From Podarcis tiliguerta (lineage: Eukaryota), in the NCBI GenBank assembly GCA_965153285.1, contig OZ229115.1: 64,000 bases of DNA. One strand, given 5' to 3'. The first letter of the stretch is position 1. Every line of letters starts with the position of its first letter. The position numbers are program-made. Below, in pieces: positions 56,201 to 59,200 of the stretch.

Positions 56201-59200
56201 ACCATGCACTGCTTTATATCAGTATTTACTCAGCCCTTTTTATGGAACACATACTGTTTTAGATATAAGTGGTGCTATTACAGGCTCACAAAAACAACAT
56301 GCGCTCAGCATTCTTAAAACATTGGCCCAAGCTCTGGTTTTTGGTGGGTTTTTAAAAATATCATTATTGCTACATTTCTACAGCATTCTCTGGCTTTACT
56401 CTTTCGAGGAACAACACATCTAAACTGCGTGGCTGCTTTTGGTTTCCTGACGCTGGGTGGCTGCATTTTGTTTCTATTCATTTTTAATTTACAAGCAGGT
56501 GTTTGAAAGGAGCCATCCCAGTAAGAGGCCCATTGATTTATGTTCTATTCCAGTAAGTTTCCTTTATTAAAAATGGCACCAGCAGGAGTAGCTTCTAAAA
56601 ATGAAGGTCTCCTATTGGTTTGACAATATGCTTGCATAGTTCACCTGCTCACATCTCACCCAACTGATTTTTAATTATTTATTTATTCACATTTTTTATT
56701 TATTCACATTATGTATGCATTGTGAGGATACAGGGTATGTACCGTATTTTTCGCCCTATAGGACGCACCGTCCCATAAGGCGCACCTAGTTTTTTGGGGG
56801 GGAAATAAAGGAAAAAAATTATTTCCCCCCCAGGCGCGAGGTTGGGGAAGCCCGAGCTTCCCCCGACCCCAGCCCCCAAACAGGCAGCTCTCTGCAAGCC
56901 GTGGGAGCCCAGTGCTGGCTCCCACTGCTAGCGGAGAGGTCCGCGAAGCCTGGACGCGCTGAGCTCAGCGCGCGCAGGCTTCGGCATGCAGGCACCTCTC
57001 CGCCAGCAGCGGGAGCGCTCCCGCTGCTAGCGGAGAGGTCCGCGAAGCCTGGGCGCGCTGAGCTCAGCGCGCGCAGGCTTCGGCATGCAGGCACCTCTCC
57101 GCCAGCAGCGGGAGCGCTCCCGCTGCTGGCGGAGAGGTCCGCGAAGCCTGGGCGCGCTGAGCTCAGCGCGCGCAGGCTTCGGCATGCAGGCACCTCTCCG
57201 CCAGCAGCGGGAGCGCTCCCGCTGCTGGCGGAGAGGTCCGCGAAGCCTGGGCGCGCTGAGCTCAGCGCGCGCAGGCTTCGGCATGCAGGCACCTCTCCGC
57301 CAGCAGCGGGAGCGCTCCCGCTGCTGGCGGAGAGGTCCGCGAAGCCTGGGCGCGCTGAGCTCAGCGCGCGCAGGCTTCGGCATGCAGGCACCTCTCCGCC
57401 AGCAGCGGGAGCGCTCCCGCTGCTAGCGGAGAGGTCCGCGAAGCCTGGGCGCGCTGAGCTCAGCGCGCGCAGGCTTCGGCATGCAGGCACCTCTCCGCCA
57501 GCAGCGGGAGCGCTCCCGCTGCTAGCGGAGAGGTCCGCGAAGCCTGGGCCCGCTGAGCTAAGCGCGCGCAGGCTTCGGCATGCAGGCACCTCTCCGCCAG
57601 CAGCGGGAGCGCTCCCGCTGCTAGCGGAGAGGTCCGCGAAGCCTGCATTCGCCCCATAGGACGCACCCAGATTTCCCCTTCATTTTTGGAGGGGAAAAAG
57701 TGCGTCCTATAGGGCGAAAAATACGGTAAGCAACTCAGCTCTGGTTAATACATTTGCATGAAATAGTGGGGCATAGGGTCCCTCTTTGCAAATAACCTCC
57801 CATCTGAGCCAGACCCTATGGGGGAATGCCTGGAAGATACAGAGGCCTGCTTCACTTGATTCTTTCGGGGAAGGCGGTCTGTGAACTGGACTGCCATGAG
57901 ACTGAGCTCACACAGGCAAGAGTTTTCTACGTGGAAGAAGGGAGGGGTTTGTGTCCTGTTTTGCCAGTGCTTCTGCAGTACGGATGCTGACTGCCAAAGG
58001 GCTGTTTAACACTTTGCACAGCCAACATGATTTCAGCATGTCTATCACAATGAACACCATACCAAATGAAAGGGAGACTCATCCCGGTGAATGCGCTGAA
58101 AGCAAAATGGGTATGTTACAGTTGAGGTGCGGCCCTAAGCAGAAAAGACTAAACGAGAGGTGAAGGCGGGGCGGTTGAAATGAATTTGCCCATTAACCTA
58201 CAGCAGGGCGGGGGCGGGGGGGGGCTACTTTTCCACTGAACTGTTATTGAGAAATGAAATGACATGATTTTAATTATGCTGATCTCGTGTTGTACTCTGG
58301 CTAATTAACATTGCCCCACTGGTAGAAAAGCAACCACAACAGACAGCAGAACCAATCCCAAGTGAATTAGCCTATTTAACTGTAGCAGTTCTTTGTTGGC
58401 CTATCAGCTCTGTGAAAGAATACTGTATCACCTTTCCCTTTACTACAGTGTAAAGAGCATAGCCAAGAATAAGCATTCCCTCAATGCCTTTCTTAGGTTT
58501 CTTTTCCACCCTATTTTCAAAGCAGTTGGCAAAATATCCTATTTTATTTAACCATTCAACCTTGTTAGACTGAGGGACAAAAGTCTTGCCTAAGAATGAC
58601 TTGGAGGGGTCAGTTCTTCAGTATTCCATGCTCAACTATTTTATGCTCTACAATGTTGGTTTTTTATTTATTTCTTTTTTTGTTCTGCAGTGTTTCAGAA
58701 ATGCCCCTGCAACACGATCATCTATTGACATAGCTCCCGGCACCTAATGATTGTGAGACCCACCACTGGCACCTCAGTTACACTTCCACACAAAATCCTA
58801 AACAACTCCTGCAATGTTAGAAGGAGGCCCAAAGAACACCTATGAATGAATAGATGACATCAGTGAACATTTTGGAGTGATTTACAGCAGCTTTGGTATC
58901 AAACAAATGTGGTGCCTGGAAACTATCCTAAAGGGACGCCAAGAGAGCTTTTGAGCCGGTTTTAAAACTCTGTTGATTGCTGTTTTGACAATAAATAATC
59001 CCAGAAGGGAGTTACTGAACAGATTGCAGCACTGGAGGATTTTGAAACAGAGAATACAAAAAAAAGGGCGGACCATTTCTCCAAGGACTGACAGACAGTA
59101 TGTCCATTACATTTGTGCTGCACTGGGTGATGACGAACATATATTCCCTATGGGATACAAGGAAACATATATCCATGCTGCATAAAGACTCAATGCCTGT

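What the first reader, a model, noticed from the sequence alone, without database searches (positions are those of the whole stretch)
56742..57726. Young Tc2/pogo MITE carrying a ready-made CpG island as cargo
Seen: perfect 27-bp TIRs, a TA TSD and extra subterminal TIR-like motifs enclose about 720 bp of GC-rich tandem repeat with 13 CpGs per 99-bp unit and almost no CpG decay, in a window that is otherwise strongly CpG-depleted. Established: CCGTA-starting TIRs with a TA TSD typify Tc2/pogo (Kanga/MER104-like) elements, and MITEs can seed satellites. Inference: this is a recently mobilised non-autonomous element that deposits a variable-length CpG island wherever it lands. It could act as a portable promoter, a methylation nucleation site or a satellite seed. 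This is the best candidate in the window for an undescribed system.
Basis: partly seen in the sequence, partly recalled or inferred. Interest (0 to 1): 0.75.

Follow-up and report, generated by a model that had tools for sequence, protein, structure and literature searches.

The report
MITE carrying a CpG-rich minisatellite
A small, apparently recently inserted cut-and-paste transposon remnant, in what looks like a lizard genome, carries a 728-base tandem repeat so rich in CG pairs that it counts as a CpG island; this kind of element is already known, and whether the island does anything is untested.

Summary
Perfect 27-bp inverted ends (56742-56768, 57700-57726) with TA on both sides enclose 985 bp. 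Inside are 7.4 copies of a 99-bp unit (56918-57645, 99% alike). CpG observed/expected is 0.92 in the element and 0.22 in the rest of the window.

New here:
- Each unit is two palindromes, 46 and 40 nt.
- A 17-nt motif occurs four times at the ends.
- Arrays of the same unit lie on four different contigs of the lizard Podarcis lilfordi, mis-annotated as hypothetical proteins. So the array is not a one-off local expansion.
- A P. lilfordi unit inferred from three overlapping reading frames differs at 7-8 of 99 bases. It keeps 13 of 13 CpGs, and the changes fall in two symmetric position pairs of one palindrome.

Best reading: a young non-autonomous TA-inserting (Tc1/mariner-superfamily) MITE with an internal minisatellite, which is a known kind.

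Not testable with these tools: Tc2 membership, copy number, linkage of ends and array at other loci, the autonomous partner, and methylation state. No eukaryotic DNA collection or repeat library was available. Interest is moderate to low.

The parts
56740..56741 (.). TA target-site duplication, left copy
   Evidence: read directly
56742..56768 (+). left 27-bp terminal inverted repeat; holds copy 1 of the 17-nt motif (56752-56768)
56769..56785 (+). 17-nt motif copy 2, in direct tandem with the TIR core; putative second transposase-binding site (inference)
56790..56831 (.). short hairpin-forming stretch (T6 G7 ... C7)
   Evidence: read; paired as a 14-bp stem in the DNA fold
56881..56917 (+). 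diverged partial unit at the left edge of the array. 56881-56908 aligns to unit positions 72-99 at 23 of 28 bases. Both CpGs that lie wholly inside that stretch read TpG here.
   Evidence: score 31; highest of 200 shuffles 25
56918..57645 (.). array of 7.4 x 99 bp with 93 CpG, GC 74%, o/e 0.94. Each unit is a 46-nt palindrome plus a 40-nt palindrome plus a 13-nt spacer. Units 3-5 share a private G at unit position 13.
57650..57666 (+). 17-nt motif copy 3, in the same orientation as the left end, so it forms an inverted pair with the right TIR core 33 bp away
57672..57697 (.). short hairpin-forming spacer (TTTCCCCT ... AGGGGAAA)
57700..57726 (-). right 27-bp terminal inverted repeat; holds motif copy 4
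57727..57728 (.). TA target-site duplication, right copy
   Evidence: read directly

Best explanation
This is a young insertion of a non-autonomous cut-and-paste DNA transposon (a MITE) of the TA-inserting Tc1/mariner superfamily, in a squamate (lizard-type) genome.

How it most likely works:
- A transposase supplied in trans by an autonomous relative would bind the 27-bp ends and the repeated 17-nt motif, excise the element, and re-insert it at a TA, which is duplicated. This step is inferred from the anatomy.
- The cargo is a minisatellite of a 99-bp unit built from two palindromes. The array belongs to a dispersed repeat family and is not a local accident.
- Its length changes in place by slippage or unequal exchange, probably helped by the hairpin-forming units. 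Shown: units 3-5 share a private variant. Inferred: the mechanism.
- The array passes the sequence definitions of a CpG island, mainly because the unit is intrinsically CpG-dense and this copy is young. A regulatory or epigenetic role is possible but not shown.
For: Shown in this window:
- Perfect 27-bp TIRs and a TA on both sides.
- Four copies of a 17-nt motif confined to the ends.
- 985 bp with no convincing protein domain. Of 139 ORFs of 75 aa or more in the window, only one array ORF nominally passed a whole-protein cut-off (COX7a, 24.1 against 22.1 bits), with 0 stretches passing on their own. I take that as a sum over repeats.
- No Rfam family and no tRNA.

For youth:
- TIRs match at 27 of 27 bases.
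- Backbone CpG o/e is 0.75 (15 CpG in 257 bp) against 0.20 and 0.29 in the 1-kb flanks.
- The array is 99% homogeneous.

For a family-level array:
- Four 'Hypothetical predicted protein [Podarcis lilfordi]' entries lie on contigs of 71.8 Mb, 137 Mb, 2.9 kb and 41.6 Mb.
- Threading them on the unit leaves 21 of 605 residues unmatched, with 14 jumps between the three reading frames.
- HMMER over 1.84 billion representatives listed 15 proteins. Only 3 had 68-88% identity, and those are P. lilfordi entries.

For in-place length change: units 3-5 share G at unit position 13.

For hairpin-prone units:
- The 46-nt and 40-nt palindromes are 96-100% and 95% self-complementary.
- The DNA fold gives -524 kcal/mol, z = -59.

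For a squamate host:
- The only relatives of the array are from a lacertid.
- A roughly 340-bp dispersed repeat present in 5 copies or fragments (one copy read) resembles, from recall only, the squamate Sauria/Squam SINE.
Against: - Only one copy is in the window. Of 37 blastn alignments of the element against the window, 0 lie outside it.
- No other copy with both ends was seen anywhere, so mobility as a unit and multi-copy status of the ends are inferred, not shown.
- No transposase is in the window.
- The inner motif at the right end points the 'wrong' way (-> -> [array] -> <-). That does not fit a classical IR/DR layout and could mean a composite of two elements.
- None of the four P. lilfordi proteins reaches non-array sequence, so they do not link array and ends.
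- A search with an ORF that reads from the right TIR into the array found nothing: 208 candidates, 0 at E <= 0.01.
- The Tc2 subgroup label is recalled, not tested.
Confidence: 0.72

Rival explanations
1. Portable functional CpG island. The array is kept unmethylated in the germline and/or is under constraint. It acts as a mobile promoter, insulator or binding platform for a dimeric factor wherever the element lands.
For: - The element passes the usual sequence criteria for a CpG island, recalled here as length over 500 bp, GC at least 55% and o/e at least 0.65.
- The P. lilfordi unit inferred from three overlapping frames differs from the window unit at 7 or 8 of 99 bases, yet shares 13 of 13 CpGs.
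- The chance of 0 of 7 differences falling on the 26 CpG bases is 0.11 if all sites are alike, 0.0007 if CpG bases are 5x as mutable, and 0 of 100,000 simulations at 10x.
- Four of the 7 differences fall in two symmetric position pairs of the 46-nt palindrome. Pair 4/96 is fully compensated. Pair 13/87 is complementary only in the minority variants. The chance that two or more symmetric pairs are both hit is 0.008.
- The abstract of PMC5001583 reports that protection from methylation is DNA-encoded.
Against: - The same abstract says young CpG-rich lineage-restricted repeats evaded methylation only where co-evolved targeting mechanisms were absent. That implies their own host normally methylates them.
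- Youth alone explains this copy, because the backbone also keeps its CpGs (o/e 0.75).
- The partial unit at the array edge reads TpG at both CpGs that lie wholly inside the aligned stretch.
- P0002 carries 2 CpG transitions, and unit position 87 in most P. lilfordi units looks like a CpG-to-CpA change. So decay does occur in this lineage.
- The consensus comparison follows the lineage of source copies, which may simply be the ones that stayed intact.
- The inferred unit rests on 4 proteins and one manual tie-break.
- There are no methylation, chromatin or transcription data.
Confidence: 0.13
2. Composite or captured array. The 99-bp repeat is an independent dispersed minisatellite or satellite of lacertid genomes. 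Here it sits between a left end and a complete mini-MITE, or was captured by them. On this view the array is not a constant part of the transposon family.
For: - The right 77 bp (motif ->, 33-bp spacer, <- motif plus terminus) look like a tiny palindromic element of their own. The motif layout is -> -> [array] -> <-.
- The P. lilfordi arrays are known only as arrays, with no ends seen.
- One of them lies on a 2.9-kb unplaced contig, as satellite-like sequence often does.
Against: - The left backbone runs into the array through a diverged partial unit. That fits an array that grew out of sequence already inside the element.
- A single TA duplication flanks the whole 985 bp.
Confidence: 0.12
3. 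One-off local expansion. Only this copy amplified an internal 99-bp segment, and other family members lack the array.
For: Units 3-5 share a private variant, so some amplification did happen in place.
Against: Arrays of the same unit exist on four other contigs in P. lilfordi. They span at least 88-238 residues, that is 264-714 nt, of array each.
Confidence: 0.02
4. The array encodes a real repeat protein, as the P. lilfordi annotation implies.
For: Long open frames run on both strands (289 and 286 aa), and four database proteins are annotated.
Against: - The four proteins switch among the three frames of the same unit 1-6 times each.
- Both strands are open, as expected of 74% GC DNA.
- No Pfam domain has any single stretch passing.
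- That annotation used ab initio predictors trained on human (passage).
- No relatives exist outside this one proteome.
Confidence: 0.01

Closest known systems
Tandem-repeat-containing MITEs: DTC84 of the clam Donax trunculus and pearl-like elements (PMC3879986; abstract read)
   Same: Both are non-autonomous elements with a central array of core repeats inside flanks that hold inverted repeats. Repeat number varies. Each repeat holds a palindrome, proposed there as a hotspot for array length change.
   Different: DTC84 has up to five repeats, a microsatellite at one array end, short inverted repeats and a putative AA duplication, in a bivalve. Here there are 7.4 units, 27-bp TIRs and a TA duplication in a vertebrate. 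The unit is almost wholly palindromic and of CpG-island density.
Tetris foldback transposon of Drosophila virilis (PMC4079207; abstract read)
   Same: Both are non-autonomous DNA transposons whose internal tandem repeats also occur as separate arrays. Both have strong foldback potential.
   Different: In Tetris the roughly 220-bp repeats lie inside long TIRs and gave kb-size satellite arrays in beta-heterochromatin. Here the array is central. It is self-complementary only because each unit is palindromic, and satellite-size arrays have not been shown.
SVA retrotransposons of hominids, termed 'mobile CpG islands' (PMC6928650; abstract and passages read)
   Same: Both are mobile non-autonomous elements with a GC-rich variable-number tandem repeat as cargo. 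The idea that transposition spreads CpG-island-like DNA is the same.
   Different: SVA is a retrotransposon of about 2 kb with a hexamer repeat, Alu-like, SINE-R and poly(A) parts. Here the element is a cut-and-paste TIR element of under 1 kb in a squamate.
Tc2-group elements of vertebrates (HSTC2, Kanga, MER104 = Kanga1a-c), listed under Mariner/Tc1 in PMC5753468 (passages read)
   Same: TA duplication and TIRs of this length class. From recall only, a TIR that starts CCGTA-like.
   Different: The human families are ancient, and an internal array in them is not known to me (recall).

Membership tests
Tc1/mariner-superfamily non-autonomous element (MITE) | TA target-site duplication | tested here: met
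   TA at 56740-41 and 57727-28
Tc1/mariner-superfamily non-autonomous element (MITE) | terminal inverted repeats | tested here: met
   27 of 27 bases match; 0 chance matches in 100 shuffles
Tc1/mariner-superfamily non-autonomous element (MITE) | small size and no transposase gene | tested here: met
   985 bp. The ORFs are array read-through only, with no domain stretch passing.
Tc1/mariner-superfamily non-autonomous element (MITE) | many genomic copies sharing the same ends | not testable with these tools
   One copy in the window. No eukaryotic DNA collection was available. Two scans of bacterial/archaeal contigs found 0.
Tc1/mariner-superfamily non-autonomous element (MITE) | an autonomous partner with a DD(E/D) transposase and matching TIRs | not testable with these tools
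   None among 139 window ORFs. No genome to search.
Tc2/pogo subgroup (Kanga/MER104-like) | TIR sequence alignable to Tc2-type consensus sequences | not testable with these tools
   No Dfam or Repbase here. The TIR string is in 0 papers. PMC5753468 lists the families without sequences.
CpG island (sequence definition) | length over 500 bp, GC at least 55%, CpG o/e at least 0.65 (thresholds recalled) | tested here: met
   985 bp, GC 69%, o/e 0.92
CpG island (functional: non-methylated island) | unmethylated in germline or tissues | not testable with these tools
   No methylation data. Indirect only: 13 of 13 CpGs shared with the inferred P. lilfordi unit.
Tandem-repeat-containing MITE | central tandem array inside a TIR-bearing cassette | tested here: met
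Tandem-repeat-containing MITE | array present, with varying copy number, in other copies of the element | tested here: inconclusive
   Arrays on 4 P. lilfordi contigs, spanning 88-238 residues, but their flanks were not seen.
Foldback element | long inverted terminal regions made of repeats | tested here: not met
   The TIRs are 27 bp. The array is one direct tandem run. Its self-complementarity comes from palindromic units.
Protein-coding repeat gene | one maintained reading frame and a recognisable domain | tested here: not met
   1-6 frame jumps per database protein; no domain stretch passes.

The most novel reading that the evidence does not exclude
A lacertid DNA-transposon family spreads a dyad-symmetric, CpG-dense array. 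The array's CpGs and palindromes are maintained: 13 of 13 CpGs are kept despite 7-8% unit divergence, and two symmetric position pairs have changed together. On this reading the copies escape germline methylation and serve as binding arrays for a dimeric factor or the transposase. That would make it a cut-and-paste counterpart of SVA 'mobile CpG islands', seeding new non-methylated islands, promoters or boundaries in a cold-blooded vertebrate.
Probability: 0.12. Interest if true: 0.7.

Novelty: new member of a known kind. Interest (0 to 1): 0.35.

Why it matters
If the family is numerous and its arrays stay unmethylated, it would be a natural experiment. It would show how CpG-dense DNA dropped into methylated, CpG-poor vertebrate chromatin is treated outside mammals, and it would be a source of lineage-specific CpG islands in lizards.

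Insertion and array-length polymorphisms could serve as population markers in wall lizards.

There is also a practical point for annotators. At least four 'hypothetical proteins' of P. lilfordi appear to be translations of this minisatellite.

As it stands, it is one well-formed example of a known class (a MITE with an internal tandem repeat).

Tried and rejected
- Other copies in the window: none. All 37 blastn alignments lie inside the element, and the TIR has 2 matches, both its own.
- Rfam at gathering thresholds: 0 families. ARAGORN: 0 genes. So there is no sign of a known RNA gene or miRNA precursor.
- Pfam on 139 ORFs: no transposase, only a weak RVT_1 fragment elsewhere.
- TIR string in the full text of papers: 0.
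- Genome contigs (bacteria and archaea only), a long shot for host contamination: the TIR pattern gave 0 and an array 29-mer gave 0.
- Protein search with an ORF reading from the right TIR into the array (P0017): 208 candidates, 0 hits. So there is no protein-level link between ends and array.
Names for P0002 and P0005 came instead.
- The other 12 of the 15 HMMER hits (21-36% identity, 513-4819 aa) were not inspected. I take them for compositional matches.
- Right backbone against the unit: no similarity above shuffles.
- Literature on lacertid satellites (passages of PMC7397244) names pLHS, pLCS, pGPS, CLsat, Agi160, HindIII and TaqI. No sequences were available, so no comparison was possible.
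- The Anolis DNA-transposon survey (passages) mentions one Tc2-related non-autonomous family (TcMar-N4) and no tandem repeats.
- I considered a CTCF-like motif in the 46-nt palindrome from memory. I dropped it because no motif library was available to test it.
- Supplements of the P. lilfordi genome paper, which could list repeat families, could not be seen.
- I do not take the window for human. The array's only relatives are from a lizard and the interspersed repeat looks squamate.
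Full report
**1. The observation**

- A 27-nt string starting CCGTA occurs at 56742-56768 on the + strand and, perfectly inverted, at 57700-57726. These are the only two matches in 64 kb even with three mismatches allowed, and none of 100 shuffles gave a match.
- TA lies directly outside both ends.
- Tandem Repeats Finder reports one array at 56918-57645: period 99, 7.4 copies, 99% matches, no indels. 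It is the only GC-rich minisatellite among the nine tandem repeats of the window.
- The unit consensus has 13 CpG and 74% GC.
- The element has 108 CpG in 985 bp (o/e 0.92, GC 69%), against o/e 0.216 and GC 42% for the rest of the window and 0.20 and 0.29 for the 1-kb flanks.
- The window has no N.

**2. Anatomy beyond the finding**

(a) The 17-nt core of the TIR recurs.
- The pattern CGYCCYATARGRCGCAC has four matches, all at the element's ends: 56752 (+), 56769 (+), 57650 (+) and 57700 (-).
- The layout is therefore -> -> [array] -> <-. The left end has two direct copies.
- The right end is a small palindrome of its own, with two inverted motif copies 33 bp apart. This is not the classical symmetric IR/DR layout and leaves room for a composite origin.

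(b) Each 99-bp unit is nearly all palindrome.
- It consists of a 46-nt palindrome (100% self-complementary in units 3-5, 96% in the other units), a 40-nt palindrome (95%) and a 13-nt spacer.
- As single-stranded DNA the element folds at -524 kcal/mol, against -267 +/- 4 for shuffles.

(c) Variation within the array is small.
- There are seven variant bases at five distinct unit positions.
- Units 3-5 share a private G at unit position 13, so at least part of the array grew in place.
- One variant is a CpG-to-CpA change (56924, in the edge unit). One is a transversion inside a CpG (57550).

(d) Just left of the array, 56881-56908 is a diverged copy of unit positions 72-99.
- It matches at 23 of 28 bases (score 31; the highest of 200 shuffles was 25).
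- Both CpGs that lie wholly inside that stretch read TpG there.
- So the array seems to have grown from sequence already in the element, and CpG-to-TpG differences do exist outside the homogenised part.

(e) The non-array backbone is also CpG-rich for this genome: 15 CpG in 257 bp, o/e 0.75.

**3. Coding and RNA content**
- Long ORFs cross the array on both strands (289 and 286 aa), as expected of 74% GC DNA.
- Of the 139 window ORFs of 75 aa or more scanned against Pfam, none has a domain stretch that passes on its own.
- One array ORF nominally exceeds a whole-protein cut-off (COX7a, 24.1 against 22.1 bits, 0 stretches). I take that as the sum of a short match over repeats.
- There is no transposase in the window, only a weak RVT_1 fragment at 37961-38194.
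- Rfam and ARAGORN found nothing.

**4. Relatives elsewhere**

No other copy of any part of the element is in the window. No eukaryotic DNA collection was available.

Protein databases gave an indirect view.
- The + strand array ORF hits four entries, each named 'Hypothetical predicted protein [Podarcis lilfordi]': P0001 (238 aa), P0002 (88 aa), P0005 (123 aa) and P0016 (156 aa).
- They lie on contigs of 71.8 Mb, 137 Mb, 2.9 kb and 41.6 Mb.
- An exhaustive HMMER pass over 1.84 billion representatives listed 15 proteins. Three had 68-88% identity (P0001, P0002, P0005). The other twelve had 21-36% identity and were not inspected.
- Threading the four proteins on the unit leaves 21 of 605 residues unmatched, at the cost of 14 jumps between the three frames. 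The proteins carry nothing from outside the array.
- The P. lilfordi genome paper (passages) says ab initio predictors trained on human were used. This fits these entries being artefacts.

So arrays of this unit exist at four or more loci in a lacertid lizard. That disposes of the 'one-off local expansion' alternative. It does not show that those arrays sit between the same ends. A last protein search with an ORF that reads from the right TIR into the array found nothing.

**5. What the P. lilfordi units say**
- Three overlapping frames of one unit are represented, so the nucleotide unit can be inferred. 91 of 99 overlapping triplets are constrained, and only two sequences are consistent.
- They differ from the window unit at 7 or 8 of 99 positions and have 15 or 16 CpG. 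All 13 CpGs of the window unit are retained in both.
- The chance of none of 7 differences falling on the 26 CpG bases is 0.11 if all sites are alike. It is 0.0007 if CpG bases mutate 5x faster, and 0 of 100,000 simulations at 10x.
- Four of the seven differences fall in two symmetric position pairs of the 46-nt palindrome.
  - Pair 4/96 changes from C/G to G/C and is fully compensated.
  - Pair 13/87 is A/C in the window consensus (G/C in units 3-5) and C/A in the P. lilfordi consensus (C/G in P0016). It is complementary only in the minority states.
  - A third pair, 22/78, is uncompensated.
  - The chance that two or more symmetric pairs are both hit by 7 random changes is 0.008.
- This suggests that dyad symmetry and CpGs are preserved along the lineage of source copies, whether by selection, by arm-to-arm repair in hairpins, or by survivorship of intact source copies.

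Caveats:
- The inference rests on four proteins and one manual tie-break.
- I do not know how the window's species relates to P. lilfordi.
- Decay is visible in P. lilfordi too. P0002 has two CpG transitions, and position 87 looks like a CpG-to-CpA change in most units.

**6. Host**

I do not take the window for human.
- The array's only relatives are lacertid.
- A roughly 340-bp dispersed repeat occurs as five copies or fragments, 72-86% alike. The copy I read resembles, from memory only, the squamate Sauria/Squam SINE.

The taxon is therefore 'squamate, perhaps lacertid', by inference.

**7. Mechanism**

The best-supported reading is a young insertion of a non-autonomous TA-inserting Tc1/mariner-superfamily element. 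It would be moved in trans by a transposase that recognises the 27-bp ends and the repeated 17-nt motif (inferred). Its internal minisatellite expands and contracts in place (partly shown), with the palindromic units as likely slippage hotspots. The same idea is proposed for DTC84 (abstract).

CpG-island status by composition is shown. Function is not. Youth is enough to explain CpG retention in this copy, because the backbone keeps its CpGs too.

The abstract of PMC5001583 cuts both ways. CpG-dense DNA tends to stay unmethylated by default, but young CpG-rich lineage-restricted repeats escaped methylation only where the host's co-evolved targeting was absent.

**8. Comparison with the known**
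- MITEs with internal tandem repeats are described: DTC84 and pearl-like elements and Tetris. The search listing shows several further papers and reviews on the link between transposons and satellites.
- A mobile element with a GC-rich VNTR, termed a 'mobile CpG island', is described for SVA.
- Kanga, MER104 and HSTC2 are listed under Mariner/Tc1, but no TIR sequence was available. Tc2 membership therefore stays a recalled lead.
- Searches for this element itself found nothing in print: the TIR string, Tc2 + MITE + lizard, Podarcis + transposable elements and lacertid satellites.
- Dfam and Repbase, including a 'podarcis' library mentioned, could not be consulted, and supplements were closed.

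**9. Verdict**

This is a new member of a known kind, not a new system. Two features are unusual and worth a cheap genome-wide follow-up: the CpG-island-grade, almost fully palindromic unit, and the hint that its CpGs and symmetry are conserved between two lineages. Interest 0.35.

Noticed in passing
window 1086-1426, 7047-7417, 11570-11901, 20464-20781, 1981-2155: A roughly 340-bp dispersed repeat occurs as five copies or fragments, 72-86% alike, on both strands. The copy at 1086-1426 explains the only other CpG-rich 500-bp window (1001-1500, o/e 0.63). From recall it looks like a squamate Sauria/Squam-type SINE. ARAGORN finds no tRNA-like head.
   Followed up: partly
Podarcis lilfordi proteins P0001, P0002, P0005, P0016: Four database 'hypothetical predicted proteins' appear to be translations of the 99-bp minisatellite, with 1-6 frame jumps each. 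They are likely annotation artefacts.
   Followed up: yes
window 56881-56908 against unit positions 78 and 87: At position 87 the diverged edge unit carries A, the state of the P. lilfordi consensus, and not the window array's C. At position 78 it carries G, the state inferred for a P. lilfordi minority variant. This hints that the window array's states are derived and were spread by homogenisation.
   Followed up: partly
window 37961-38194 (-): A weak reverse-transcriptase fragment (RVT_1, E = 0.0034, below the cut-off), probably an old LINE remnant.
   Followed up: no
window 56674-56716: An AT-rich 17-bp tandem repeat (2.5 copies) lies 25 bp upstream of the insertion site. The element landed in AT-rich DNA.
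   Followed up: no
window 29522-29641; 15332-15441; 723-783: Other tandem repeats: a 60-bp unit x2 (96% alike), (ACATA)n x22.6, and adjacent (GCT)11 and (CTA)10.
   Followed up: no
window 39532-39588 and 43364-43420: The only other inverted pair within 4 kb outside the element: 57 nt, 79% alike, 3.8 kb apart, with no TA flanks. This is probably two copies of a dispersed repeat.
   Followed up: no
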